Positions 15,819-39,714 of a stretch of 64,000 nt of DNA are shown here, piece after piece. How positions within the stretch are numbered: the stretch's first letter is position 1; each line of letters starts with the position of its first letter. The position numbers and the translations under genes are program-made. This stretch comes from a phage: the sequence record PZ171035.1, one strand, 5' to 3'. The notes under the pieces are model-generated. The model did no database searches. It was not told where the DNA came from and saw only the letters and a list, made by a program, of their open reading frames with translations.

Positions 15819-16349
15819 ATGCCTCAGATTGGTTCAGCGACTATTGGTCAAGTTGCCAATAGCAGTGAGATAGTCAAGCATCTGTTCTTAGCAGAACTGG
15901 TTCGTCTTGATAGTGTGTTAAACGGTATCATTGATAAGAACGACCGTATCAATGGTATTGATGTATCGGCTGGATTCCTTTATCAGGGTGAGTTCTATCA
16001 GCGTTCTAATGCTGCCAGACCTCCAACCTACGGTGAACGATTAACACTTAATCCAGAACTTTGGCCTGCAATGGACAAGTATCTGAAAGCCTCCAGTCGT
16101 TTGATTATGGAAGTACACCTAGTGAACCAGACTGTATATCGCCTGGTTCGTGGTTGTATGTCCTATCAGGATGTACGTGATGCTTTGCCTGAGTGCCTGG
16201 TAGCCCAAGACCAGACTGGTAAGTATAAGGAACTGCCACGTACTCGTGAAGCAGCCTGGACACTTGCTGGTGATCCCATGGCAATAAAACAGTATGAGAA
16301 GATTCTTCCCTCTATTGAGTATTATGCAGCTTCCCATCTGATTTTCTAA
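15819..16349 (+). CDS. hypothetical protein
   Basis: 176-aa ORF with GGGAGG RBS. Confidence 0.45.
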   Translation: MPQIGSATIGQVANSSEIVKHLFLAELVRLDSVLNGIIDKNDRINGIDVSAGFLYQGEFYQRSNAARPPTYGERLTLNPELWPAMDKYLKASSRLIMEVHLVNQTVYRLVRGCMSYQDVRDALPECLVAQDQTGKYKELPRTREAAWTLAGDPMAIKQYEKILPSIEYYAASHLIF

Positions 16350-25473: not shown

Positions 25474-25513
25474 GAACCAGTGGACTTTATTACTCCCCGA
25501 AGTCCACTGGTTC
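25474..25513 (+). repeat. 14-bp perfect inverted repeat (hairpin), 12-nt loop
   Basis: GAACCAGTGGACTT-TATTACTCCCCG-AAGTCCACTGGTTC. Confidence 0.8.
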
Positions 25514-26557
25514 AATCTAAACTAAGCGGAAAAGTTAGCTTTTTCTTGGGTGTAGAACCTGTTGAAGGAAACAAAGAATTTCACATTGAATAGTTAATAT
25601 CGTGAAGGGTTCTGTTAGAATCCTTTGAGATAGGAACTCCTATCATAACTATTCTTAACTTAATCATTGCCGTATGGCACTGACGCTAGGGGTGGCCCCC
25701 CCATCCGTCAGGTAGACTATTTTAAGAATGGATTATCACAGCAAATGTAAAGCAACATTCGGGTTAATCAATGGCCTCTCCCTATAGGGGCCATTTCTGA
25801 ATCTTAGGCTATATCCCAAAGGTTAGTATCTTTGGGATAAGGCTTCAGATCCCTTATCAACTAACGCTCGTGTTGAGCATTTTAATCACATAAGCCCCTA
25901 TATGGGCTGGGTTAAATGTCGGATAGCAAAGCTACCTACAGCATCGAATTGTTAGGTCTTACATGTAATATAGGGTATAAAGGGAGGACTCGTCCCCTCC
26001 CTCCTATTATGACATCCTATCAATGAGTACATTAAGCTAACGTGCGGAGGTTTACACTGTAGCCGGTGTAGGTGGAGAAGACGGCAGGGTAGCTACCTGT
26101 GCTTAGTGTACTCTTTGATAGTTTTCGTAAGCGATTATGCGGTTTTTTAGAAACGAACCAATAACATAAATGCAAACGATGATGTTGTTCTGATGGCGGC
26201 GTAATAGCCTGTAAGTCAGCAAGGTCTTCCGACTCCTTGTAAGCAAATTCGGCGCAGTGGCCCGCTGTGATTAATAATGGGCACACAACAGGTAAGAGCA
26301 TTTAGGCTACTGAGAAATCATCCGAGGCAATCAGACCTATCTTCTGTTAAGTGCTCTTTCCGTTGTGGTGAATGCGCAGGCTGATGCGCAGTGGGACGTG
26401 GCTGACTCACGAGGATGGCTCAAGCGAATAAGCAAGCTCGACGCCGCCGAATAAGCGCCTTATGCCGGAGATCAGCACCGGCCACCACAACAAGTCCAGA
26501 CGATATCTGAGTGACTATAAAAACAGATGGAGCCAGGTGGAATCCCTGGCAACTAAT

Positions 26558-26623
26558 TCCGGTGTAGGTACTAGTGTCGTGCACGGCATGAGCATTCTGG
26601 TTCGAGTCCAGACGCCGGAACCA
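26558..26623 (+). ncRNA. tRNA-like element (T-arm plus acceptor minihelix with encoded CCA)
   Basis: Acceptor TCCGGTG/CGCCGGA, T-arm TCTGG-TTCGAGT-CCAGA, discriminator A, CCA; only 63 nt before CCA and no canonical D/anticodon arms found. Confidence 0.3.
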
Positions 26624-26625
26624 AT

Positions 26626-26749
26626 TACCAGTTGCACGAGATGGCTTGACATGTTCAAGTTTGGACTAAGTGTGACACCGCTAGATTGGAGGGCTGCTGC
26701 GGTAAGCTATAGACTCCAACCGGAGGTTCGAATCCTTCACTGGTAACCA
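26626..26749 (+). ncRNA. tRNA-like element with ~48-nt extra internal sequence
   Basis: Perfect 7-bp acceptor TACCAGT/ACTGGTA, T-arm GGAGG-TTCGAAT-CCTTC, discriminator A, CCA; 121 nt between acceptor strands. Confidence 0.3.
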
Positions 26750-27332
26750 ATTCAAAGTAGCACTCGTTTATACTTCCCGGTATTCAAAGACACATTCTTG
26801 TGTGAGTGTTACTCTGAATTGTAAGAATTATGGGGGTAAGTCGTAAATACGACAGCGTAAGTACCAGATGAAACCTCTGGACGCCCCTACCATATTTGAG
26901 ATGTAACAGTTAAATCCGTACCCGGAAGTGCTATTCTAGATACGCTGCCAATGTGGAGACGGTAAGGCTGTACAGGACTCGGACTCCCACCTCAAACCAA
27001 AGTCGCCAGATACTTATGGCAAACGGGTAGTAACGAACTAGTCATTCGTCAAACGCCCACCCTATTATGAGTCAGCAAGAACGCCTTCACTTAAACTTAA
27101 ACAAAAAAGCTTAACGCAATAATTATGTAGGGGTATGTAAGGATTGCGAAGAAGGAGCCAGTTAAAGTCTGGCATGACTCACCTAATTGAGGCTGTACTT
27201 ATGTTCTACAGTAGGTGCACAACACTGGGCTGCTACACCCAGAGGTACAGCCTCACCCTATTATGGGTAGCCTATACTAGTTATAGGGCAGATAATCTGT
27301 GGCAGTGTAAGGCTGCACTACCCTTTCATTAA

Positions 27333-27408
27333 TACCCGGTAGGCTTAGTGGTAAAGCCCCACTAGTAAACCAACTAGGACGCAGGTTCGAATCCTGTCCG
27401 GGTAGCCA
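27333..27408 (+). tRNA. tRNA (anticodon not resolved)
   Basis: Acceptor TACCCGG/CCGGGTA, D-arm GGCT-TAGTGGTAA-AGCC, T-arm GCAGG-TTCGAAT-CCTGT, discriminator G plus CCA; anticodon arm pairs only with a shifted, non-canonical register. Confidence 0.55.
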
Positions 27409-27413
27409 TTTAT

Positions 27414-27498
27414 GCCCACTTAGCTCAGTGGTAGAGCGCAGGAAAGCTTCGAGAGAACAAGGTGTCTGTGGTCACTGGTTCAAATCCAGTAGTGGGTA
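27414..27498 (+). tRNA. tRNA, 85 nt, probably long-variable-arm type (anticodon not resolved)
   Basis: Acceptor GCCCACT/AGTGGGT, D-arm GCTC-AGTGGTA-GAGC, T-arm ACTGG-TTCAAAT-CCAGT; no CCA encoded; no canonical anticodon stem found by eye. Confidence 0.5.
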
Positions 27499-27813
27499 CT
27501 TATTTGCTGCAATATTCCCATAGGGAATGGTGTCGTATACGCCACCTAGTTTCTGGTGAAACTCCAGATGCAGCAATCCATTCAGCAGTAACATAGTCCT
27601 GATTGCATTGCACTCTAAAGACAACACTGGTAAGACAGTCCAGTGGCTGCTATTGTATTGATATTCCCCTCGACGGGAATTTCGCTAGTGAAGGTAACAC
27701 TTAAAAATCCAAACCCACGTCTTACTGCTATCGGGCTATCAACCCACAGTCGCTTAACACACTAGTGGTAGTAGTTTGACGACCTAGCCTCGTTAGCTGC
27801 GTTAAAGCTACTA

Positions 27814-27850
27814 AGTCCCCTAGAGCCGCCCCTCTAGGGGACTTTTTTAT
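27814..27850 (+). terminator. rho-independent terminator (12-bp perfect stem)
   Basis: AGTCCCCTAGAG-CCGCCC-CTCTAGGGGACT followed by T6. Confidence 0.75.
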
Positions 27851-29315: not shown

Positions 29316-29345
29316 AAGCCCCTCATTAGAGGGGCTTTTTCATTT
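29316..29345. terminator. bidirectional rho-independent terminator between convergent operons
   Basis: AAGCCCCTC-ATTA-GAGGGGCTT with T-rich tracts on both strands; sits between + strand stop (29310) and vRNAP stop (29344). Confidence 0.7.
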
Positions 29346-32300
29346 AGTTAGTAAGATTGAGCCACGGGTTCAGGGTATGAGCACGTAAGCCTTGACCGAA
29401 ACCGAAGGAGTAACCAAGATTGCCCTGTGCAGCAATACTAAAGATGTTGTCCTGAATAGGCAGGCCAACGTTACCAAACATGGTAGGGGTTGGGGCCAAC
29501 ATAGCCATAGCAGCATGAACTGGGTTATTACGAATCATGGACACTGCAACTTTTGCAGAACGAATCTTAAAGTTGTAGAACCACATCAGACCAACGCTTT
29601 CCATATACCCACGGAAACGACCAGGCAGACGGTCATAGTTAATGAACTCTTCCGTTACACGTCCCAGTGCTTCTTCGCGAGTCTTACCTTTACGCTGAGT
29701 TAGTTCATCATAGATGATTGCTTTAGCAATAAAGTCAGAGTACTCAACCGTCTTCTGGATACTCTGGAACAAAGCAGTATCCTTAGTGATAAGTGCATAA
29801 CGACCTGCGTTACGTACAGACTTAGGCAGCTTATCGGCTAGCTTATCCATATATTCGTGAAGTTTACCTTCAGTAATCAGAATGTCATCACGCCCAATAC
29901 CAGCATCTGCAATTGAAGAGAACTCACCAGCTTCCAATAGAGGCCAGATACTCAAACGCTTATGGCTATCCGTAATGGACTGAATCTCAGCCTTAAGTTT
30001 ACGAATCTGGTTCGGGTTAGTAGCTGCACGTAATTCTGCTTCTGCATCTACCTGACGCAGGCGAGATTTCAGGTACTGGTTAATCTCAGCAGTCTTCTGT
30101 GGAATGCTCTTAGCAATGTTCTTAACCGGTACACCACGAGCAACCATCTGGTAAAGGTTAGCCAGGAAGTTAACAGCAGGTACAACTACTGACTTAACCA
30201 CAATCAGAGTCTTAGCTTCTTTAACTAAGTTTTGAACCAGGTTCTCTCCACCCATTACATATTTATAAGCACGGTTACCGAAGACACCCAACATAGCTTT
30301 CTTGAAGGTATCCAGTGTTTCTGGGGACCAACGAGAATTACCAGACCAGGCATCACCAACGGAAGCTGCACGATAACCTAAGGCATCATTAAGCATGTCA
30401 CGACGTACCCACAACTCACCTGGACCAAACAGACTTTCTGCTTTCTGACGAGTTTCACTATTCATCAGCTTAAGTGCATCGGCAGTTACTGGGTCCAGTT
30501 TAGAACCAAGAAGGTTAACGTACTGGGACTTATTAGAAGCAGACATCTTAATGTCGTTCTCATACATGCTATGCAGGTTCTCAATTAGCATATCGTTGAA
30601 ACGCTGAGCCTTAGCCTCTTCTACCTGACGACCACGCCATACACCGATTGCACGAGCAAGATGGTTCTCACCTTCAATGTGCTTCAGCATGTTAGGGTCA
30701 ATAGATTGCTCGTAAGCAACTACATTACCATTAGCATCATATACAGGCAGCAGAGGTTCATTACCACGTTCACCACGAGCAAGTGCTTTAGTGATACGGT
30801 CTACAGAAGGCTTGTCAGTGATACGACCCGCTACCATGGTTCCCATCGTAAAGCCTGTACCAAGGTCTACACCACCAGCAGTATTTCGAACGTTCTGTAA
30901 GATACCCTGTGAGAATGGGGCCTGTGCCTGTACTGGTGCGAAGTAGTAGCTACGTGCTGGACCACGGTTAGCAGAGCTACCTTGATAAGTACCCAGACGT
31001 ACATAGGACTTCTCAATCAAATCACCAAACTGGCTATCTTCAGCAACAATCAGATTAACACCCTGTTTAGTCTCACTAGGGATATGCCCTTTGTACTGGT
31101 TCAGGGTTGCACGCATATCAGATTTGGCTTTAGCCATTTCATCTTTACGCTGACCAACCAGGTAAGAGGTGGCAAAGTCCATCCCATCAACTTCTGTCTG
31201 AGCCAGTGAAGATAACATCTCACGGTCGGACTTGTTCATTGCTTCCAGTGCATACAGGGTAATCAGTTTATCCAGTTGAGCTACATCTACAGTAGAGCGT
31301 GCAGCCTGACGTTCACCCAGCATACGGGAGATTGCAGTAGCATTACGCAGCAGGTTTTTACCGACAGTACCATTAATCATGTACTGAGCCAGTTGCTTAG
31401 ATTTACGGTTAATCAGAGGCCAGTTACGACCAGCTTGTTTCTGCAAATCTGCTTCCAGCTTATTCACTTCACGGTCAACAATCTTCTGGTCAGTCAGTAA
31501 GTCACGGATTTCAGCCAGTGACATAGTGTCACGCAGGACAGCTAAATCTGTTTTACCCATACCAGTATGCATTACTTTCCACTCATCATTAGTCAGCTTA
31601 CGGCTGAACTTAGATGCGATAGTAGTAGGCAGATGTTCACGGAACTGCTGACGGTCTGCCTGCACCTGTGCACGTACTGCTTTAATCAAATCGTATACAG
31701 AAGCATTGCTCTTAGTACGACCGGTTAAGTCATTAACCAGGTCATGGAAAGGTTGCCATACCTTACCCTGGTTCATTGCAGCCATAACACCTTCAGCTAC
31801 GATTGCACCATTCTTCTCTGTAGCAATAGCAGCTACCAGTTGTGCAGCATGAGCAGCACCTTTAACCAATGGATTATTGGTATTGGCTGCAACTTCACGA
31901 GCACCTTCCAAAGCACGGGTAGATAGTACATCAATAGAATCCACCAGATACTGGTTAGCACGGTCAATAGCATTACCAGTAGGAGTAGCAACGGAATCAT
32001 AGAAGGATTCTGCATTAAGACTGGTCTGCATAATCGTCTGAGCCAGTGCATCCATACCTTCCTGTACGTTAGTAGCTTTAGTATCACCTGCTACACGAGC
32101 ATTCAGACTAGCCATTGCAGCAGTACCAATGTTAGTCAGCATTGCATCAACGGTATTACCTGATTTCTTATCTGCTTTCATGACAGGAATGTCAGCCAGT
32201 ACTTTACGTACTTCTTCACTTACCATTGCCAGACCAACAAAGGTAGGCAGTAAAGAAGATCGACCTTGTGCATCAAACTCAATGTTGTTAGCACCCATGA

Positions 32301-35300
32301 TGGTATCGAACTTCTGCTGTGCATAATAACGATCAGCAGGGTTAGTACTATCTGGGTCAGCCATAAATGCTTCGACGGTCAGATTCTTAGTAACATGCGT
32401 GTAGTATTCCTGTGCACGAGCCATAGCAGCAGGGTTAACAGCAGCCTCGGTAGCCAGTGCAGCAACAATATTGGTAAAGAGACGCTGTTCCTGCATATTC
32501 ATGGTGAAGCCATGAGCCTGAACATCACGAGTTACTTTAGTTGCATTTACTACTGCATCAGAGAACTTACCTTTGCGAATTACTTGCTGTACTGGTTCTG
32601 AACCAATGTAGTTAGTAATTAGCTTATCAAAGGTTTTCCCTAGCTCTTCCAGACGAGTATTTTCACCATACGCTTTGTTATGGAACAGAGTAGTATCTTT
32701 GGCTACAGCAGCAGTAGGAGCTTGCCCACGCATTACTACAGCAGAGTTAAACAGTAAGCCAGAGAACATATCTTCTGCATTAGCAGGAGCTTTCTTACGT
32801 CCAAATACCAGACGTTTGATTGCTTCATATACAGCCTGAACCATAGTTTTAAGTGCAGTGGTTTTCTTCTGCTTACTAATCAGTTCTCGGTTGGTTAAAC
32901 CCCAAGCCATGTACTCGTTCAGTGCAGCAGCTTTAGCCATTGCTGGTTCAATAAAGCCATTGGATAGGTGACCATTAATGGTATTCAGTGCATCAGCATA
33001 TGCTTCTCGTACTGCCGGAGATTCATCCCTAACATCCAGAGCACGGAACTGATTCATCAGGTCTTCGATGTTCTGGACTGCTTCATTAGGAGTGCCTTCA
33101 TAGTGAGCCAGTACAGATTCAAAAGTAGAAGCATGTACCAATTCATGAACCAGAGTCTCTAAGGAAGGGGTAACTAAGTAGATGGTTTTATCTTCAAAGT
33201 TAGTCCAGCCGTATGCATTACCAGCTTCAGCAGCTTCAATATCTTCCGGTGCTGGGCGAGTAATGTTCTTCTCAATAGCATAGGCATCCAATTGAGCAGG
33301 TGTACCGTAAACAACTTTATAGTCTTTAGCAGCAAGGGATTTCTGTATTTCTTTCAATACTTCTTGCTGTTCAGGAGACATCTCTTTAGCCAGTTTAGTA
33401 ATGGCAGTGTTAGACAGCAGACGTACACCAGACTTCAGTACACGACCAACCTGTTCCATCGCCGGTACTTCTTCCACTGGTTCTGCTTTAGTAGCACGTA
33501 CTGCTTCACGACGCTTATTTAATTCAGCATCAAACAGTTCGTTCAGCTTAGCTACTTGCTGGTCTACAGTAAGACCTTCCAGAGAGATTTTACCGTTGTT
33601 CACATAAGGAGCACCTACGGCAGCCATCTGGTCAACAGTGACTTGTACCTGGTCCATTACCTTGTGACGAATATCTACACCCAGAGCAATGTTACGCAGG
33701 TTACGTTCAATCTGCTCAGCACCGACACGTAACAGGTCATCAGTAGCACCCTCACGTTGGTCATACTCCAGAGCAGACTTAGCGATAGCCTGTTTGGTTT
33801 CATCAGACAGTTTACTGAAGTCTACGTTCTTCATGAACTTAGCGTAGGAGTCATAAACATTCTTGATAGGGTTACCCTGCCAGGAAGTATATACAGCCTC
33901 ATTAGCTTTGCGACTTGCATCAGTGATGTCATTGATACCAATGTTCATACCATCAAAGATTTTCAGGGTATTCTTCGGAGCACCTTTCATAGTAGAAAGT
34001 GTCTGCATCATCATGCCATCACCAGTACCGATGGTCATAAATGGAATACCTGCAACACCTGCCTGTGAAGGAGCATAAATGCTCATTGGCACACGCATAC
34101 GGTCATCTAAGTTAGTAGCCAGTACTTGGTTAGCAACATCAGTATTCTCACTACCAGCAATGTAGAAAGTCTGTGAACCAGTCTCAATCATTGGAGCCAG
34201 TGAAGATAATGATTCCTGGATTTCATTCAGTTCTTTCTGCGTTAAGAAATCACCTTTCTTCCAGGTTGGGTCTTTTTCTTTTTCTGCCAGCTTAGCCTGT
34301 ACTGCTTGCTGGAACATATCCTGCAATACCAGAGATTGAATCTGGGTAGCCTTCTGCAAGTTCTCGGTAGAGTGCATCAGACCTTCACCAACAGTATTAC
34401 GGATACCAGTACGCATTGGTTCAACGAACAGGTGGAGCATGTTCTCTTGTAAGTTCTTCAGGGCATTACCGGATACGGTAAATTTCTGGGGGTCTAACTT
34501 ACCAGTCAGAGCACCATCTACTTGCTGAATAGACAACTCACCTTTACGCATAACTGGAACATTACCAGTCAGTGCTTCCATAGAAGTAAGGAAAGTATCC
34601 AACATAGCCTGAGCATCAGCTTCAGACGCAGCCTCCTTACCAAACATTGCCATAGCTGGGGAAATGCTAGGGTCAGCAGCTCGTGCTTGCAGAACGTCAC
34701 TGAAGCGTTCGTAGATGGTATCAGTAATTGCACTGACCATCTTGCCAGCAATACCACGAGCACCAGAACCATAGATGGTAATGGTCAGTGGGTTTTTAGC
34801 AATACCACGTTTCAGGTCCAGAGTACCGTCTTCATTCAGGTTAAAGTCTTTAATGAACAAGTCCATTAACTTCTGGAGATGATTCATCTGGCTCATAACT
34901 GGAACGTTGTTACGGTAAGTAGTACGTAACTCATTCAGTGCTTGTTGAAGACCATTGGTAGATGCTTCATACAAGTCAACATTATCGTCGATAGAACAAT
35001 GTTCGTTCATCGTTTTACCAGCACGACCAAAGAACAAACCACCTTTGGCAGTGTTCTTAATCCAGTCTGGAGTGAACTTACCACCAGTCATTAATACCAT
35101 TGCGTTGATTGGGCCGTTGGTTACACCATCAGCTTCAACGTACAGTGGAGTAGTAAAATTAGCACGGTCATCACTGTTCAGGTAACGGGCATATTCCATC
35201 AGAGCCATGAGAGCTACGAAGGATTTATCACTACCCAGAGAGGTCTTCAGGATGTCTACTGCATCTGTCGGTAAGTGACCAGACTTATCAAACTCAACCA

Positions 35301-38300
35301 TCATATCAACAGCAGGTTTCAGTTTACCTTCCAGAGCTTTAGTTAACTCTTCAGACATAACTTCACGGGACATTTTATGTACCTTGATGCCTAATGCCTG
35401 AGCCAGACCTAACTGGAAGTCAGAGAACGCTTGGCTGTTTTCATTACTCAAGTCGATAGTAGAGAAGGTTGGTAGGATTGCTTCACGAACCAGCTTACTG
35501 GATTGTGGGTTGTTCTTACCAAGCATCTGCATACGACCTACACGGGTCATGTTATAACCGTAGTGGATAGGTGTATCCAGACCATTCTCTTGTTCTCGTA
35601 TCTGATTAATTACACCGAACAGAGAATCATATGCCATAGACACGGACAGGTTTTTACCTTCCAAAGATTTAGCAGTGTTCGCGTTCAGTAATTCTGGATT
35701 AAGAGTACCAGCACCCATCAGTTCCAGAATGTTGTCACGCCCCAATGCTTCATAGAAGTTAACCATTGGCATATGTACACGGAACTCGGTAGCCTGTTCA
35801 GCTTTCAGTGCAGCTTTCTGTTCAGGGGTATTCTTAACAGCAGGGTTACGCAACTGAGTCTGAGCCACAGAAGGAATGTCATCACCAAAGTACATTTTCT
35901 CTTCTGGTTCTAAGAGGACAGCTTCCTCAATAGCAGTAGGGAATTTATTAATGGCATCATTGTCATCCAACTTCTCAATGGTATACAGACCAACAGTCTT
36001 ATTGGAGTCTGGGTCAATCTCAGACACATCCAACATAGACTCTTTAACTTCACCCATCTCAATGAGAGAAGACAGAATCTCTGTAGCCATTGCCATTGGG
36101 ATACCTTTGGTATAACCCAGCGGTGCATTAGGATTACGATTCAAACCCCAGTAGGATTCAATCTTCTGAGCCAGTGAGTTAGTAGCTTCAACCAGGGTCT
36201 GGGCATTCTCGAACTCAGCCAGAATACCTTCTGGTAACAGAGATGCTTCTACGCCTGTAATAGCAGCTACGTCTTTCATATCTTTAATGGCAGCATTCTG
36301 TGTAGTAGTCAGTCGCCATTGCAAACCAGCAAGCACAGCAGTCTCTAACAACTGGTCGTTGAACTTAAAGGTATCCCCATCTTGTTCAACTATATTCAGC
36401 AGTTTGCCACCTACCCAACGGTTAGCTTCAGTACCTTCTGCAAAACGTTTACCAACGTTCTTATTAGCAAGGAACTTAGCCAGACGTTCAGACAAAGTAG
36501 TCTTCAGAGTTTCACCAAAGTCCATTAAGTCCTGATAACGCTTAATCACATCACTAGTGAGAGCGTTATTTTCTTTTTGAGTGAATGCCTCAAAGCGAGC
36601 AGCAGAAGACAGTGCTTGCTTAATATCAGTCAAAGGAGATTCTGAACCAATGGTACGGGACTTAGGTTCTTCCGGTAAGGTAAATGCTTTCAGGAACTGG
36701 TTCGGTGTCTTTTCATTGTTATAGACAGGGAACACTGTTTCCATTTCTGTTTTGGTTTCAGCTACTTCCTGGATGGTATCCTCATTCTTGAGAATAGCAT
36801 CTACTGTTTCAGGCTTAGTAGTAGAGACTTCTTCTGTTTTTGGACTAGTCTCCTTAGTAGGAGCAGTCTTATTTTCTACCACAGGTTTAGCTTTAGGCTG
36901 TACAGTAGTAGTGTCCTCTTGCACTGGTGCAGGAGATTCATCAACCTGATTCACTGGTTCATTAGTCTGTTGAGACTGAGTGGCATCAAGACCACCTTGA
37001 CGGAACTCTTTAACTACCTGGGCAGCAGGCTTGTTCAGACGTGAATCCAACGAGGTAACTTTCACATGAGAAACATTAAGCTCCGGGTAAGCCGTAGCAA
37101 GTGCATTAGCAATATCAGCTACGGTTTTGGCTTCCAGTCCTACTTGCTGGGCAAACTTAACAGACTTGGTATCGTAAGGATTGACACCGAGGCCAGTACG
37201 ACTACGTACCCATTCACGGGAAGGCGAGAGAGCCTGATAATGAACAGACTTATTCTTATCCGCATTCCCCGAAATCAGATGCTCATTCAACGCTCCGACC
37301 TTATTCTGCATGTGCTGGGCGAACTTCATAAAGTCGCTCAGATAAGCGGAGGCCAAATCGAAGTTACCAGAGTTATACGCAGAACGAATGCGTTTCGCAT
37401 GTTGCAACGCAGAGTACTGTCCTTCATTAGAACGAGACTCGTCGGTTTTAATCTGTTTACTAACAATGTCTTGAGGACGTAAGCCTAGTTCTTCTGCTTT
37501 AGCGTCGAACTCACGTGCACCCTGTAACAAGGCAGCAGCAGATTGCAGGGCAGCACGTTGACGATTACCCAATGTAATCTTACCTTCACTTGCATGTTTC
37601 AGAACCATGTTCACTGAATCCGCATCCAGTACTTCTGGAGATACATCAGCAGCCATAGCAATATTGTTTGCTTGGGCTTGGTTAGCTTCTTCAGTAGCTT
37701 TCAGCTTACCTGCTTCAGCCTGTTCCTGAATCATGGAATGGATAGCACGGAATGCACGAAGTACTTTCGGGGTATTCTGTACGTTAGCCATCAGGCCGGA
37801 GAATTGGTCTACGATTGCAGCAGCAGGAGAACCCTGTTCAAGATTAGCCAGAGCACCTGGGTCACGGTTAATGAAGCTATCCATAGACATGATGTTGTCA
37901 TACATCTGGATTGCAGCTTCCATTTGAACGTTAGGGTCTTCGGCAGTATTAACCAGGTCAGCCATCTTCTGAATAGCTTCAACACGGTTAGTGGAACCAG
38001 AAACAGCTTCACGGATTGCCGGGTTAGCTTGTTCCAATTCTACCGGGTCAAACTTCATTGCCTGAGTTAAGTCAGCAGCATACTGGGTAGCAGCAGCTTT
38101 CTCTTCTGGAGTGATGTCCATTGCATCCACTGCTTCTTGTACAGTTGCCTGTGCTTGTTCTGCCTGAGCAGCAGCTTCCTGTGCAGCAGCATTAACCGTA
38201 GCATCAGCTACAGGGGATGCTTGTTCATTACGCTTAGCAACTTCTTCACCACGTTGAATCAGGATGTTAGTAAGAGGGGATGCAGCTTTTGCTAATGTTT

Positions 38301-39714
38301 TGCCAACCAGAGAAGCACCAGCCATGGTAGTACGAAGAGCAGGGCCAGCAGAAGCACCAACTGCTTTAACAGTTGTACCAGGAGCTTGAGCAACCCCAGC
38401 ACTACCGAATCCATAAAGTGCACCCAGACCTGCTTGCTCACCAACCCCTTTGAGGGTGTCACGGGATGCATCAACGTTTTCTTTGATTGCAGTATTCTGT
38501 GCGAACTGACCAAAGCCGGATTGAATACCTTCTTCGACTGTTTCACGTAGCATATTAGAACCAGCACCTGCCAGTGAACCTACCTTAAGTGGGTTAAGTT
38601 CAAAGCGAGATACCAGTGGACCGGTAGCAGCAGCAACTGGAGCAGTTAAGCCAGCAGCAATGATACCTGTTTCAGATGCAGTCTGACGACGTGCTTCATC
38701 AGGAGATAAACCATCAGCAATATGTTGTTGGTAAACAGGAGACTTACTTGCCAATTCTTGATGGGACATCTTCATGATTTCAGAAGCAGTCTGTTGGTAT
38801 GCACCACCAGCTTCCATACCACCGATTGCAATAGCAGGTGCAGCAACACGACCGGCAGACAATGCAACCTGTGCAGGACGTGAACCTAACCCAGCAGCTA
38901 AGGTAATACCCTTAACAGCTTTATCACCACCTACCATTACTTTACCAAGTGCAGATACACCACGAATAAGAGGACCACCAGTAAAGAGAGAACCAACACC
39001 TTCACTCAGTCCGTCAGAGGCAGCCATACCATTATCAAGTGTGTTAGCAACAGAATCGAAAGCGTCACGACCAATACGAGACAGGGAGGCAACCAAATCG
39101 CTGTCCCCATTTTTGATATCTTGTTCATAAAGTTTCTGGTTCTTTTGAGCAGAAATCTGGTTCTGATTCTGAACAACTTTACGGGTAGCATTCAGTGCAT
39201 CAGACTGTAGATTGTGTACACCTTCATTCAACCAATCCATCCCGGAAGCAATGGATGCCCCGGCATTATCATTGACCAGACCTGTGCCAAGAGCAGCAAT
39301 GCCCCCAAGGGTATTAGCAACACCAAGACCAACACCAGAAAGAGTATCGCCAAATGCTTCTGCGTTAGTACGCTGTTTAGATAAGTCCTGACGTACAACA
39401 TCAGCAGCATTAGCTCGGCTATTAATAATCTGTAGACCTTGTTCATTACCGTACTTATTAATGATTTCTAAAGGGGAGGCTTGAGTGAAATCTGCCTGAA
39501 GTGAACCTGGTTCGAATGCACCGATTCCAAGATTACCTACTCGTCCGGTCTGGAGATTGTAAGCATTCTCTGGGGTTAATTGGAAAGGGCTTTGCCCTTG
39601 TGCAGCTTGCTTCTGAGAGGTTGCAGTAGAGACATCGACTTGCTTAGCATTAGTGATGCTGTCTGCGAAACCTGCCAGACGGTCAAATGTTGACATAGCA
39701 TGTTTCCTGTTCAA
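29344..39714 (-). CDS. virion-encapsidated giant RNA polymerase (N4 vRNAP-like)
   Basis: Single 3456-aa ORF at the distal end of the late operon; size and position are the hallmark of N4-like phages (N4 vRNAP is ~3500 aa). Confidence 0.8.
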   Translation of the reverse strand: MNRKHAMSTFDRLAGFADSITNAKQVDVSTATSQKQAAQGQSPFQLTPENAYNLQTGRVGNLGIGAFEPGSLQADFTQASPLEIINKYGNEQGLQIINSRANAADVVRQDLSKQRTNAEAFGDTLSGVGLGVANTLGGIAALGTGLVNDNAGASIASGMDWLNEGVHNLQSDALNATRKVVQNQNQISAQKNQKLYEQDIKNGDSDLVASLSRIGRDAFDSVANTLDNGMAASDGLSEGVGSLFTGGPLIRGVSALGKVMVGGDKAVKGITLAAGLGSRPAQVALSAGRVAAPAIAIGGMEAGGAYQQTASEIMKMSHQELASKSPVYQQHIADGLSPDEARRQTASETGIIAAGLTAPVAAATGPLVSRFELNPLKVGSLAGAGSNMLRETVEEGIQSGFGQFAQNTAIKENVDASRDTLKGVGEQAGLGALYGFGSAGVAQAPGTTVKAVGASAGPALRTTMAGASLVGKTLAKAASPLTNILIQRGEEVAKRNEQASPVADATVNAAAQEAAAQAEQAQATVQEAVDAMDITPEEKAAATQYAADLTQAMKFDPVELEQANPAIREAVSGSTNRVEAIQKMADLVNTAEDPNVQMEAAIQMYDNIMSMDSFINRDPGALANLEQGSPAAAIVDQFSGLMANVQNTPKVLRAFRAIHSMIQEQAEAGKLKATEEANQAQANNIAMAADVSPEVLDADSVNMVLKHASEGKITLGNRQRAALQSAAALLQGAREFDAKAEELGLRPQDIVSKQIKTDESRSNEGQYSALQHAKRIRSAYNSGNFDLASAYLSDFMKFAQHMQNKVGALNEHLISGNADKNKSVHYQALSPSREWVRSRTGLGVNPYDTKSVKFAQQVGLEAKTVADIANALATAYPELNVSHVKVTSLDSRLNKPAAQVVKEFRQGGLDATQSQQTNEPVNQVDESPAPVQEDTTTVQPKAKPVVENKTAPTKETSPKTEEVSTTKPETVDAILKNEDTIQEVAETKTEMETVFPVYNNEKTPNQFLKAFTLPEEPKSRTIGSESPLTDIKQALSSAARFEAFTQKENNALTSDVIKRYQDLMDFGETLKTTLSERLAKFLANKNVGKRFAEGTEANRWVGGKLLNIVEQDGDTFKFNDQLLETAVLAGLQWRLTTTQNAAIKDMKDVAAITGVEASLLPEGILAEFENAQTLVEATNSLAQKIESYWGLNRNPNAPLGYTKGIPMAMATEILSSLIEMGEVKESMLDVSEIDPDSNKTVGLYTIEKLDDNDAINKFPTAIEEAVLLEPEEKMYFGDDIPSVAQTQLRNPAVKNTPEQKAALKAEQATEFRVHMPMVNFYEALGRDNILELMGAGTLNPELLNANTAKSLEGKNLSVSMAYDSLFGVINQIREQENGLDTPIHYGYNMTRVGRMQMLGKNNPQSSKLVREAILPTFSTIDLSNENSQAFSDFQLGLAQALGIKVHKMSREVMSEELTKALEGKLKPAVDMMVEFDKSGHLPTDAVDILKTSLGSDKSFVALMALMEYARYLNSDDRANFTTPLYVEADGVTNGPINAMVLMTGGKFTPDWIKNTAKGGLFFGRAGKTMNEHCSIDDNVDLYEASTNGLQQALNELRTTYRNNVPVMSQMNHLQKLMDLFIKDFNLNEDGTLDLKRGIAKNPLTITIYGSGARGIAGKMVSAITDTIYERFSDVLQARAADPSISPAMAMFGKEAASEADAQAMLDTFLTSMEALTGNVPVMRKGELSIQQVDGALTGKLDPQKFTVSGNALKNLQENMLHLFVEPMRTGIRNTVGEGLMHSTENLQKATQIQSLVLQDMFQQAVQAKLAEKEKDPTWKKGDFLTQKELNEIQESLSSLAPMIETGSQTFYIAGSENTDVANQVLATNLDDRMRVPMSIYAPSQAGVAGIPFMTIGTGDGMMMQTLSTMKGAPKNTLKIFDGMNIGINDITDASRKANEAVYTSWQGNPIKNVYDSYAKFMKNVDFSKLSDETKQAIAKSALEYDQREGATDDLLRVGAEQIERNLRNIALGVDIRHKVMDQVQVTVDQMAAVGAPYVNNGKISLEGLTVDQQVAKLNELFDAELNKRREAVRATKAEPVEEVPAMEQVGRVLKSGVRLLSNTAITKLAKEMSPEQQEVLKEIQKSLAAKDYKVVYGTPAQLDAYAIEKNITRPAPEDIEAAEAGNAYGWTNFEDKTIYLVTPSLETLVHELVHASTFESVLAHYEGTPNEAVQNIEDLMNQFRALDVRDESPAVREAYADALNTINGHLSNGFIEPAMAKAAALNEYMAWGLTNRELISKQKKTTALKTMVQAVYEAIKRLVFGRKKAPANAEDMFSGLLFNSAVVMRGQAPTAAVAKDTTLFHNKAYGENTRLEELGKTFDKLITNYIGSEPVQQVIRKGKFSDAVVNATKVTRDVQAHGFTMNMQEQRLFTNIVAALATEAAVNPAAMARAQEYYTHVTKNLTVEAFMADPDSTNPADRYYAQQKFDTIMGANNIEFDAQGRSSLLPTFVGLAMVSEEVRKVLADIPVMKADKKSGNTVDAMLTNIGTAAMASLNARVAGDTKATNVQEGMDALAQTIMQTSLNAESFYDSVATPTGNAIDRANQYLVDSIDVLSTRALEGAREVAANTNNPLVKGAAHAAQLVAAIATEKNGAIVAEGVMAAMNQGKVWQPFHDLVNDLTGRTKSNASVYDLIKAVRAQVQADRQQFREHLPTTIASKFSRKLTNDEWKVMHTGMGKTDLAVLRDTMSLAEIRDLLTDQKIVDREVNKLEADLQKQAGRNWPLINRKSKQLAQYMINGTVGKNLLRNATAISRMLGERQAARSTVDVAQLDKLITLYALEAMNKSDREMLSSLAQTEVDGMDFATSYLVGQRKDEMAKAKSDMRATLNQYKGHIPSETKQGVNLIVAEDSQFGDLIEKSYVRLGTYQGSSANRGPARSYYFAPVQAQAPFSQGILQNVRNTAGGVDLGTGFTMGTMVAGRITDKPSVDRITKALARGERGNEPLLPVYDANGNVVAYEQSIDPNMLKHIEGENHLARAIGVWRGRQVEEAKAQRFNDMLIENLHSMYENDIKMSASNKSQYVNLLGSKLDPVTADALKLMNSETRQKAESLFGPGELWVRRDMLNDALGYRAASVGDAWSGNSRWSPETLDTFKKAMLGVFGNRAYKYVMGGENLVQNLVKEAKTLIVVKSVVVPAVNFLANLYQMVARGVPVKNIAKSIPQKTAEINQYLKSRLRQVDAEAELRAATNPNQIRKLKAEIQSITDSHKRLSIWPLLEAGEFSSIADAGIGRDDILITEGKLHEYMDKLADKLPKSVRNAGRYALITKDTALFQSIQKTVEYSDFIAKAIIYDELTQRKGKTREEALGRVTEEFINYDRLPGRFRGYMESVGLMWFYNFKIRSAKVAVSMIRNNPVHAAMAMLAPTPTMFGNVGLPIQDNIFSIAAQGNLGYSFGFGQGLRAHTLNPWLNLTN

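What the first reader, a model, noticed from the sequence alone, without database searches (positions are those of the whole stretch)
27333..27498. Two tRNAs with intact acceptor, D and T arms but non-canonical anticodon arms
For 27333-27405 the only good anticodon-region helix gives a 6-nt (or 8-nt) loop in a shifted register. For 27414-27498 (85 nt, long-variable-arm length) I could not find a canonical anticodon stem at all. Unusual anticodon loops can indicate suppressor or frameshifting tRNAs, or non-decoding tRNA-like RNAs.
Basis: seen in the sequence. Interest (0 to 1): 0.5.

Follow-up and report, generated by a model that had tools for sequence, protein, structure and literature searches.

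The report
Phage tRNA-like RNAs without anticodons
Two adjacent genes in an N4-like coliphage keep the body of a tRNA but have no usable anticodon; one carries a conserved 30-base hairpin that other phage families mount on a different tRNA-like frame, so they look like carriers for functional RNA modules rather than translation adaptors.

Summary
The window is an N4-like coliphage (Gamaleyavirus).

**Standard tools:** ARAGORN calls 27333-27408 "tRNA-???" with a 2-base anticodon and misses 27414-27498. Rfam's tRNA model hits both but leaves the anticodon arm unaligned.

**tRNA-like #1:** It has a 5-bp helix shifted 2 nt towards the 3' end, with a 6-nt loop. Homologues in other phage groups keep the shifted helix through compensatory changes but carry a 9-nt loop.

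**tRNA-like #2:** It has a fully canonical core. Its anticodon stem-loop is replaced by a near-invariant 30-nt arm capped by C(GNRA)G. The same arm occurs in tRNA-like genes of Ackermannviridae and a T5-like phage. It also sits inside a second cloverleaf scaffold (HK620 type), which carries more than 100 different inserts in viral contigs.

**Close relatives:** At the same site they have a normal tRNA-Ile(AAU) with nearly the same acceptor and T arms.

**Reading:** These are non-decoding tRNA-like RNAs. The tRNA body probably provides processing and stability, and the arm is an exchangeable functional module, most likely binding a host factor (inferred, target unknown). Suppressor, frameshift, intron and class II readings fail. 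Neither Rfam nor the searched literature describes them.

The parts
27333..27408 (+). tRNA-like RNA #1 with encoded G73-CCA. Acceptor 27333-27339/27398-27404; D arm 27342-27358; 3-nt linker 27359-27361; shifted helix 27362-27366/27373-27377 with 6-nt loop AAACCA 27367-27372; 3-nt variable 27378-27380; T arm 27381-27397; G73 27405; CCA 27406-27408.
   Evidence: ARAGORN tRNA-???; Rfam tRNA 39.3 bits; fold z -2.6; segment and pairing table across 8 homologues
27414..27498 (+). tRNA-like RNA #2. Acceptor 27414-27420/27491-27497 (G1.U72); U8 A9; D arm 27423-27437; G26 27438; cargo arm 27439-27468; variable UGGUC 27469-27473; T arm 27474-27490; A73 27498. No CCA is encoded.
   Evidence: Rfam tRNA 53.9 bits; not called by ARAGORN; 100% of cells paired and 5 of 7 acceptor pairs changed on both sides across 8 distinct homologues
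27439..27468 (+). 30-nt cargo arm CAGGAAAGCUUC-GAGA-GAACAAGGUGUCUG. It has a basal 4-bp helix (27439-27442/27465-27468), a proposed apical UUC/GAA helix capped by a GNRA tetraloop (27451-27454), and a purine-rich asymmetric internal region.
   Evidence: Near-invariant in two scaffold types. A scan that left the tetraloop free found only GNRA in 52 loci. Pair 4:27 switches G.U/G-C. It folds less stably than shuffles, z +1.38.
26362..26491 (+). Context: HK620-type cloverleaf scaffold. P1 GUUGUGGUG/CACCACAAC, 5' module AA-UGCGCAGGCUGAUGCGC, 3' module GCCGGAGAUCAGCACCGGC, here carrying a different insert of about 74 nt.
   Evidence: Exact 23-mer match in the window; sequence; fold; family survey
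26558..26623 (+). Context: short tRNA-like module UCCGGUG...UCUGG-UUCGAGU-CCAGA-CGCCGGA-ACCA. tRNAscan-SE calls it 'tRNA-Cys-ACA' in relatives; ARAGORN does not call it.
26626..26749 (+). Context: 124-nt tRNA-like module UACCAGU...GGAGG-UUCGAAU-CCUUC-ACUGGUA-ACCA with enlarged internal arms.
   Evidence: conserved in KKP3715 and Bas96
27813..27844 (+). Strong intrinsic-terminator-like hairpin (13-bp stem, then a T run) that closes the ORF-poor RNA island on the + strand.
   Evidence: ORF list

Best explanation
Both genes encode stable, non-decoding tRNA-like RNAs. They belong to a + strand 'RNA island' (about 25500-27850) of an N4-like phage. That island contains four acceptor/T-arm modules plus one further cloverleaf scaffold, and no canonical tRNA.

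Shown:
- The acceptor, D and T arms are intact, and in #2 so is every core tertiary nucleotide: U8, A14, G15-C48, G18G19, G26, G46, G53, U54U55C56, A58, C61.
- The anticodon stem-loop cannot decode.
- In #2 it is replaced by a near-invariant 30-nt GNRA-capped arm. That arm also occurs in tRNA-like genes of Ackermannviridae and a T5-like phage, and inside an unrelated, widespread cloverleaf scaffold (HK620 type) that carries hypervariable inserts.
- In #1 a 5-bp helix shifted 2 nt towards the 3' end is conserved by compensatory change, while the loop is 6 or 9 nt.

Inferred mechanism:
- The tRNA body acts as a scaffold. It lets the host tRNA machinery (RNase P, 3' trimming, CCA addition) excise the RNA from the polycistronic transcript, and it makes the RNA stable.
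- The replaced arm is the working part: an exchangeable module presented at the tip of the L shape. It binds or sequesters a factor common to Enterobacteriaceae hosts, as host takeover or anti-defence. It does not pair with a codon.
- Charging is unlikely. There is no anticodon, G3.U70 or long variable arm, and N73 varies in family #1.

The target is unknown. One untested lead is that the arm carries two GGA-type motifs (CAGGARAG and ACAAGGUG) resembling CsrA-binding sites.

The confidence of 0.6 is a blend: about 0.85 that these are conserved, functional, non-decoding tRNA-like RNAs, and about 0.4 that the arm acts in trans on a host factor.
For: Identity of the window: an N4-like Gamaleyavirus.

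Non-decoding:
- ARAGORN and Rfam behaviour.
- No deletion restores a U33 loop.
- Loop is 6 nt versus 9 nt within family #1.
- Annotated isotypes are inconsistent.

Functional conservation:
- Family #1 occurs in 23 phage records across Gamaleyavirus, Enterobacter phages and a Stephanstirmvirinae Klebsiella phage. Three different fully paired helix sequences are seen, with a 4:69 compensatory change.
- Family #2 occurs in 169 phage records. The acceptor stem is 100% paired, with 5 of 7 pairs changed on both sides.

Cargo modularity:
- The same arm sits in two scaffold types.
- The HK620 scaffold has about 125 distinct inserts of 30-190 nt. It has 49 distinct P1 variants, 39 of them fully paired.
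- It lies beside tRNA genes on the same strand, and in HK620 between pR'/qut and tQ.
- Relatives ST4, PBM-3, KKP3715 and CU10EC have a canonical tRNA-Ile(AAU) with nearly the same acceptor and T arms. Bas96 keeps the tRNA-Ile flanks but has the cargo core.

Sequence-specific constraint on the arm:
- Only GNRA tetraloops appear when the loop is left free. Chance genome matches to the same pattern have AAAG, TCTG and TTGA.
- The arm is less stable than shuffles.

Embedding in tRNA arrays: directly after tRNA-Ser in CBA120 and SKML-39 and after tRNA-Gly in EP_H11.

Transcription unit: same strand as the upstream genes, closed by a strong terminator.
Against: - There are no expression, processing or charging data for any of these RNAs.
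- The arm's internal secondary structure is hardly supported by covariation, because it is almost invariant. Only 4:27 varies, on one side. RNAfold prefers another weak fold.
- No binding partner is identified, and no similarity to any host RNA was found.
- Near-identity of the arm across phage families could partly reflect recent horizontal transfer rather than constraint.
- For #1 no shared module was found on another scaffold, so the 'cargo' idea rests on #2.
- The tRNA-like shape could serve only as a processing or stability signal for the transcript.
Confidence: 0.6

Rival explanations
1. They are unusual decoding tRNAs: a frameshift (6-, 8- or 9-nt loop) or nonsense suppressor for #1, and an intron-containing or long-arm tRNA for #2. 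On this view they are used for programmed recoding of a few phage genes.
For: - Intact acceptor, D and T arms, and an encoded CCA in #1.
- If the closing U-A pair opens, the loop is 8 nt. The polymorphic triplet CCA/CUA (window versus ST4 and KKP3715) corresponds to Trp/amber anticodons.
- The type-b loop contains CUUAAGA, a possible UAA (Leu) loop, or UUA (ochre) in another register.
- Some pipelines assign isotypes.
Against: - No reading has U33 in position.
- Loop length differs within one family, while the non-canonical 3-nt linker and 2-3-nt variable register is conserved.
- #2 ends in a GNRA tetraloop, and no 13-nt excision gives a canonical loop.
- Bacterial tRNA introns are group I introns of hundreds of nt (own knowledge).
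- Long ORFs are uninterrupted in the standard code.
- The same arm sits in a scaffold with no canonical T loop or CCA.
Confidence: 0.07
2. They are decaying tRNA pseudogenes, relics of tRNA-Ile-like genes with no function.
For: - Relatives have a normal tRNA-Ile at the #2 site.
- The phage evidently survives without any canonical tRNA.
- tRNA content is variable among Gamaleyaviruses.
Against: - Decay would hit the stems and tertiary nucleotides. Instead every helix is 100% paired with compensatory changes.
- The replaced region is the most conserved part, across five phage groups and two scaffolds.
Confidence: 0.05
3. The tRNA-like folds act only in cis. They would be RNase P/RNase E processing sites, transcript stabilisers or insulators, or recombination hot spots for cassette exchange in the island, and the inserted arms would have no trans function.
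For: - Tandem array of tRNA-like modules within one transcription unit.
- Slots in the island are occupied by different modules in different relatives.
- The conserved scaffold flanks would favour homologous recombination.
Against: - A pure punctuation role does not explain why a 30-nt arm is held almost invariant, with only GNRA loop variants, on two unrelated scaffolds in distant phage families.
- It also does not explain why the shifted helix of #1 is kept by compensation.
Confidence: 0.2
4. They are decoys for tRNA-targeting host defences or tRNA-binding enzymes, recognised through the tRNA body. The altered anticodon arm would simply make them uncleavable or inert.
For: - Phage tRNAs are known to counter anticodon nucleases (PMC10264068 and PMC11455837, listed).
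- The elbow and acceptor are intact.
- The elements are found in virulent phages with tRNA clusters.
Against: - Known cases are functional tRNAs with point changes in the loop. They rescue translation, which these RNAs cannot do.
- A decoy for an anticodon nuclease would need to resemble the target anticodon loop, and neither arm does.
- This does not explain the arm's presence on the HK620-type scaffold.
Confidence: 0.12

Closest known systems
Phage T4 species 1 and species 2 stable RNAs (rnaC, rnaD) in the T4 tRNA cluster (own knowledge)
   Same: Small stable RNAs encoded within a phage tRNA gene cluster. They are co-transcribed and processed with the tRNAs, have tRNA-like termini, have no decoding role, and their function is still unknown.
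   Different: No sequence relationship was tested or is expected. The RNAs here keep a complete tRNA core (#2). One of them carries an arm shared with a second scaffold family.
Engineered 'tRNA scaffold' for recombinant RNA expression (anticodon stem-loop replaced by an RNA of interest; Ponchon and Dardel approach, own knowledge; aptamer-tagged tRNAs in PMC7590224)
   Same: The architecture of #2 is identical. It has an intact acceptor, D arm, T arm and variable region, and a foreign structured RNA is grafted onto the first base pairs of the anticodon stem.
   Different: Those scaffolds are artificial. Here the arrangement is natural, conserved and spread across phage families.
tmRNA tRNA-like domain
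   Same: Acceptor and T arm without an anticodon, with a long helix leaving where the anticodon stem would be. A tmRNA-like tag-coding stretch lies 1.2 kb upstream in the same island.
   Different: The G3.U70 alanine identity pair is absent: pair 3:70 is C-G in all members. A normal D stem is present. No mRNA-like domain is attached. Rfam tmRNA models do not hit either element.
Bacterial Y RNA-like YrlA (RF02553), and other tRNA mimics such as plant-virus tRNA-like structures and mascRNA
   Same: tRNA-like elbow used outside decoding. Some members are processed by RNase P.
   Different: YrlA closes the acceptor with a loop and uses the opposite end as the Ro-binding stem. The only Rfam hit is 18.7 bits against a threshold of 69, and it spans the junction of the two genes. 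No Ro (Rsr) gene was looked for.
Frameshift-suppressor tRNAs with enlarged anticodon loops (sufD/sufJ type, own knowledge; quadruplet-decoding tRNAs in PMC9094753)
   Same: Non-7-nt loop on an otherwise normal tRNA.
   Different: Those keep the canonical stem register and U33, and they have 8-nt loops. #1 has a shifted helix, a 6- or 9-nt loop and no U33.

Membership tests
Canonical elongator tRNA (Rfam RF00005 / cloverleaf) | Acceptor stem, D arm and T arm with a T-loop of UUCRANY type | tested here: met
   Rfam scores of 39.3 and 53.9 bits against a gathering score of 29; all helices are paired
Canonical elongator tRNA (Rfam RF00005 / cloverleaf) | 5-bp anticodon stem at positions 27-31/39-43 with a 7-nt loop, U33 and a purine at 37 | tested here: not met
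   #1 has a 3-nt linker, a shifted helix and a 6-nt loop. #2 has a 30-nt arm with a GNRA cap. Rfam leaves the region unaligned in both.
Class II tRNA (Leu/Ser/Tyr, long variable arm) | Extra stem-loop between the anticodon arm and the T arm (positions 44-48 expanded) | tested here: not met
   The variable region of #2 is UGGUC, 5 nt. The extra 13 nt lie inside CAGG...UCUG.
Intron-containing tRNA | Removal of one contiguous insert restores a canonical anticodon stem-loop | tested here: not met
   Enumeration of all 13-nt deletions gives no loop with U33, and the stem has at most 4 of 5 pairs
Nonsense or frameshift suppressor tRNA | Anticodon complementary to a stop or quadruplet codon, in a loop with U33 in canonical register, conserved among homologues | tested here: not met
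   Loops are AAACCA/AAACUA versus RACUUAAGA. There is no U33, and the register and length are not canonical.
Nonsense or frameshift suppressor tRNA | Aminoacylation and ribosomal decoding | not testable with these tools
   Needs charged-tRNA sequencing and proteomics
tmRNA tRNA-like domain | G3.U70 pair for AlaRS, a D-loop analogue without a stem, and an attached mRNA-like domain | tested here: not met
   Pair 3:70 is C-G in 8 of 8 members. A normal 4-bp D stem is present. ARAGORN finds no tmRNA.
YrlA / Y RNA-like | Match to RF02553 at its gathering score, with a Ro-binding stem formed by the 5' and 3' ends | tested here: not met
   18.7 bits against 69, E = 2.1, and the match spans two genes
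Cargo-arm tRNA-like family (defined here: tRNA core plus CAGGARAGYUUC-GNRA-GAACAAGGUGYCUG) | The 30-nt arm sits in place of the anticodon stem-loop, with a canonical D arm, variable region and T arm | tested here: met
   The window copy is identical to phage HK2 and 96% identical to EP_H11. Its core is 93% identical to Kuttervirus copies.
HK620-type cloverleaf scaffold (defined here) | P1 - AAUGCGCAGGCUGAUGCGC - insert - GCCGGAGAUCAGCACCGGC - P1' | tested here: not met
   Neither #1 nor #2 has these modules. A separate copy lies at 26362-26491. Only the arm of #2 is shared with this family.

The most novel reading that the evidence does not exclude
Phages of enterobacteria run a natural 'tRNA scaffold' system. 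At least two tRNA-shaped frames are involved: a true tRNA core, and the widespread HK620-type cloverleaf with more than 100 different inserts. These frames are used to express, process and stabilise exchangeable RNA modules. The 30-nt GNRA-capped arm of tRNA-like #2 would be one such mobile module, an aptamer- or decoy-like element against a conserved host factor or defence. It has moved between frames and between five phage groups. The N4-like RNA island would then be a battery of such RNAs (four tRNA-like modules, one cloverleaf scaffold and a tmRNA-tag-like element) rather than a tRNA cluster.
Probability: 0.4. Interest if true: 0.85.

Novelty: new variant of a known kind. Interest (0 to 1): 0.68.

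Why it matters
Phage 'tRNA' counts are routinely read as codon-usage or anti-nuclease adaptations. Here the genes that annotation pipelines label tRNA-Undet, OTHER, Val, Leu or Cys cannot decode at all. The phage in the window carries no canonical tRNA.

If the scaffold-plus-cargo reading holds, it would define a class of RNA-based phage effectors that current annotation hides. It would also give a natural precedent for the engineered tRNA scaffold, and supply ready-made, evolution-tested RNA modules whose targets can be fished out directly.

The near-invariant 30-nt arm is small enough for immediate pull-down and structural work.

Tried and rejected
- **Class II tRNA reading of #2.** Rejected: the variable region is 5 nt.
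- **Intron reading of #2.** Rejected: no 13-nt excision restores a canonical loop.
- **Mimicry of a host RNA at sequence level.** blastn of the arm against 5,426 complete E. coli genomes finds only 107 prophage copies and nothing in core genes. A scan of one genome per species found only 3 chance matches, all with non-GNRA loops.
- **Known RNA families.** Rfam at gathering and E-value thresholds gives nothing for the arm or the HK620-type scaffold.
- **By-eye motif comparisons (not computed).** I compared the arm with the sarcin-ricin loop, SRP domain IV, the K-turn, loop E, the FMN and ATP aptamers and tmRNA helix 2. Each shares a few bases but lacks the defining ones (for example the AGCA of SRP, or the G.A/A.G of a K-turn). 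The tetraloop varies among GAGA, GGAA, GAAA and GGGA, which rules out a strict GAGA sarcin-ricin mimic.
- **A shared module for the odd stem-loop of #1 on other scaffolds.** None was found in 2.26 Mb of fetched loci. A pattern scan for more #1 homologues gave only one new member, L244.
- **Literature.** Nine full-text searches found only unexplained 'tRNA-Undet-NNN' annotations and a general catalogue of candidate viral structured RNAs. That catalogue's supplement is not held.
- **tRNA-like domain for the upstream tmRNA-like tag region.** The window-specific 5' strand GCCGGUG (26063) is not conserved in relatives, so I dropped the idea.

Full report
**What the window is.** A 1.4-kb stretch around the finding matches N4-like coliphages of the genus Gamaleyavirus (Schitoviridae) at 86-92% identity (taxonomy). 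The 3456-aa ORF at 29344-39714 (-) corresponds to the virion RNA polymerase annotated in Bas96. The finding lies in an ORF-poor stretch of about 2.3 kb (roughly 25500-27850). It is on the same strand as the upstream genes, and a 13-bp terminator-like hairpin at 27813-27844 closes it.

**Checking the observation.**
- ARAGORN finds one gene in 64 kb, 27333-27408, and calls it 'tRNA-???' with a 2-base anticodon. It does not call 27414-27498.
- Rfam's tRNA model hits both (39.3 and 53.9 bits, threshold 29). It aligns only the acceptor, D and T arms and skips 18 and 24 nt in the anticodon region.
One correction is needed. The 85-nt length of the second gene is not due to a long variable arm. Its variable region is UGGUC, and all 13 extra bases sit inside the anticodon arm.

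**tRNA-like #1 (27333-27408).**
- Layout: acceptor UACCCGG/CCGGGUA, a 5-bp D stem, a 3-nt linker, helix CUAGU/ACUAG with loop AAACCA, a 3-nt variable region, a normal T arm, then G73-CCA.
- Twenty-three phage records hold a homologue. Twenty are Gamaleyaviruses with the same layout and a C/U polymorphism in the loop.
- Enterobacter phages SABI and SonariX, Klebsiella phage 05F01 (Stephanstirmvirinae) and one viral contig (L244) are 77-79% identical.
- In those, the odd helix is CCCAG/CUGGG or CCCAA/UUGGG, and acceptor pair 4:69 changes from C-G to U-A. Every helix stays fully paired.
- The 3-nt linker and a short (2-3 nt) variable region are kept, but the loop is 9 nt (RACUUAAGA) instead of 6.
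- ARAGORN misses these copies too, although they sit directly after tRNA-Gln in ordinary tRNA arrays.
- A family that conserves a non-canonical register by compensation, while letting loop length run from 6 to 9 nt and N73 vary among G, A and C, is under selection, but not for codon reading.

**tRNA-like #2 (27414-27498).**
- The core is textbook: U8, A14, G15/C48, G18G19, G26, G46, G53, U54-U55-C56, A58 and C61 are all present.
- The anticodon stem-loop is replaced by CAGGAAAGCUUC-GAGA-GAACAAGGUGUCUG.
- Close relatives (ST4, PBM-3, KKP3715, CU10EC) have, at exactly this place, a canonical tRNA-Ile(AAU) with nearly the same acceptor and T arms. Bas96 keeps the tRNA-Ile flanks but has the new D arm and 30-nt arm. 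A cassette has therefore been swapped inside a tRNA gene.
- The same gene core (positions 8-77, 93% identity) is present in 137 records, mostly Kuttervirus and Agtrevirus phages of Salmonella and E. coli (CBA120, Det7, SKML-39). There it has a completely different acceptor stem (UGCUUCA/UGAAGCA-A-CCA) and directly follows tRNA-Ser. It is also in a T5-like phage (EP_H11), directly after tRNA-Gly.
- Across 8 distinct sequences every proposed pair forms. Five of the 7 acceptor pairs change on both sides, while the D, T and arm helices never vary, apart from G.U/G-C at the fourth arm pair.
- Annotators have called these genes tRNA-OTHER, Val, Leu or Pro.

**The arm is a module shared with another scaffold.**
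- A scan of viral contigs for the arm's core found, besides chance hits in coding DNA, a second large family. In it the identical arm sits in a different cloverleaf: a 7-9-bp closing stem P1, AA, hairpin UGCGCA-GGCUGA-UGCGC, the arm, a short linker, hairpin GCCGG-AGAUCAGCA-CCGGC, then P1'.
- This is phage HK620 16087-16193, between pR'/qut and the late terminator tQ. It is also in T1-like Klebsiella and E. coli phages and in prophages of 107 of 5,426 complete E. coli genomes.
- When the tetraloop was left free in the search pattern, all 52 matching loci had GNRA (GAGA, GGAA, GAAA, GGGA). Only three other positions vary. Three chance matches in bacterial genomes had AAAG, TCTG and TTGA.
- As an isolated hairpin the arm is less stable than its shuffles (z +1.38). 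What is conserved is therefore sequence, not helix strength.
- No copy or near-copy exists in core E. coli DNA.

**The HK620-type scaffold is a carrier.**
These hold about 125 different inserts of 30-190 nt between invariant 5' and 3' modules.
- There are 49 different P1 stems, of which 39 are perfectly paired and 8 have one mismatch.
- It often lies next to tRNA genes on the same strand.
- Some inserts contain T-arm-like GGUUCGA hairpins, and one contains a hammerhead-like CUGAUGAG...CGAAAC core (L115; seen by eye only).
- The window has its own copy at 26362-26491 with a 74-nt insert that recurs with other P1 stems (L123, L192).
- Rfam has no family for it.

**The island as a whole.**
- A mechanical scan for 'T arm immediately followed by a strand complementary to a 7-mer upstream' finds exactly four modules in the window. 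All are on the + strand: 26558-26619, 26626-26745, and the two genes of the finding. Shuffles give 0.23 on average.
- None of the four is a canonical tRNA (62, 120, 72 and 84 nt). Three are followed by N-CCA.
- In relatives, the slots of the island are filled by different modules.

**Interpretation.**
- Shown: both genes are real, conserved, tRNA-shaped and unable to decode, and the arm of #2 is a discrete unit found on two frames.
- Inferred: the tRNA body serves as a processing and stability scaffold. tRNA-array context, encoded CCA and an intact elbow are exactly what RNase P and the 3' maturation enzymes need (established tRNA biology, not tested here).
- Also inferred: the arm is the effector, most plausibly a binding site for a host component common to E. 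coli, Salmonella and Klebsiella. The arm's two GGA-type motifs resemble CsrA sites (own knowledge of the SELEX consensus). That is a lead, not a result.
- For #1 the same logic applies more weakly, because no second frame carrying its stem-loop was found.

**Rivals.**
- Decoding oddities (suppressor, frameshifter, intron, class II) fail the defining features tested.
- Pseudogene decay is contradicted by perfect, compensated helices and by the replaced part being the best conserved.
- A purely cis role (processing punctuation or recombination sites) remains possible for the scaffolds. It does not explain the invariant arm.
- A decoy for tRNA-targeting defences is possible but has no specific support.

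**Novelty.**
- Non-decoding tRNA-like RNAs are known: T4 species 1 and 2 RNAs, the tmRNA tRNA-like domain, YrlA and viral tRNA-like structures.
- Replacing the anticodon stem-loop of a tRNA by a cargo RNA is a standard engineering trick.
- I found no description of these two families, of the shared arm, or of the HK620-type carrier in Rfam 15 or in the searchable literature. Papers on related phages list them only as tRNA-Undet or OTHER.
- I therefore rate this as a new variant of a known kind, with a substantial chance that it marks a broader, unrecognised class of scaffolded phage RNAs.

Noticed in passing
window 26101-26204 (+); tag frame 26172-26204: A tmRNA-like tag-coding stretch: ...CAUAAAU GCA AAC GAU GAU GUU GUU CUG AUG GCG GCG UAA = ANDDVVLMAA* (E. 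coli SsrA tag: ANDENYALAA). Rfam tmRNA_permuted gives 31.2 bits, below its threshold of 47. Relatives keep the frame with ANEEAYLMVA* (ST4, KKP3715, Bas96). No attached tRNA-like domain was found and ARAGORN calls no tmRNA. A 7-codon ORF in another frame (MQTMMLF / MQTKKRI) is also open.
   Followed up: partly
window 26362-26491 (+); HK620 16087-16193 (L105 3001-3107): A widespread phage cloverleaf scaffold with invariant 5' and 3' hairpin modules, a covarying closing stem (49 variants) and hypervariable inserts of 30-190 nt (about 125 kinds in more than 120 viral contigs). It has no Rfam family. In HK620 it lies in the late leader between pR'/qut and tQ. It is present in 107 of 5,426 complete E. 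coli genomes.
   Followed up: partly
window 26558-26623 and 26626-26749 (+): Two more tRNA-like modules with acceptor stem, T arm and encoded ACCA but abnormal interiors (62 and 120 nt before N73). The first is what tRNAscan-SE calls 'tRNA-Cys-ACA' in relatives.
   Followed up: partly
whole window; relatives L001-L003, L110: The phage in the window encodes no canonical tRNA, whereas close relatives carry tRNA-Ile with the unusual anticodon AAU at the site of tRNA-like #2. The decoding tRNA is therefore dispensable, or has been traded for the cargo version.
   Followed up: partly
L115, insert of the HK620-type scaffold (minus strand of the locus, about 840 nt into the reverse complement): One scaffold insert contains CUGAUGAGGCCAUAAGGCCGAAAC...GUC, which looks like a hammerhead ribozyme core. 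Rfam at gathering threshold did not report a hammerhead in L115.
   Followed up: no
window 26063-26073 and 26559-26569: The 11-nt motif CCGGUGUAGGU occurs twice, once as the 5' acceptor strand of the short tRNA-like module and once upstream of the tmRNA-like tag. The upstream copy is not conserved in relatives.
   Followed up: partly
KKP3715 (L003) and Bas96 (L004), region aligned to window 26355-26495: In these relatives the slot holding the HK620-type scaffold is occupied by a different tRNA-like module (AUGACCA...GAGGGUUCGAAUCCCC...UGGUCAU). This shows slot-wise replacement of RNA modules within the island.
   Followed up: no
window 25500-26050, 26750-27330 and 27500-27810: The rest of the ORF-poor island is full of strong local hairpins (for example 25786-25795, 25990-26010, 27222-27256, 27516-27530). 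They were not analysed and could be further structured RNAs.
   Followed up: no
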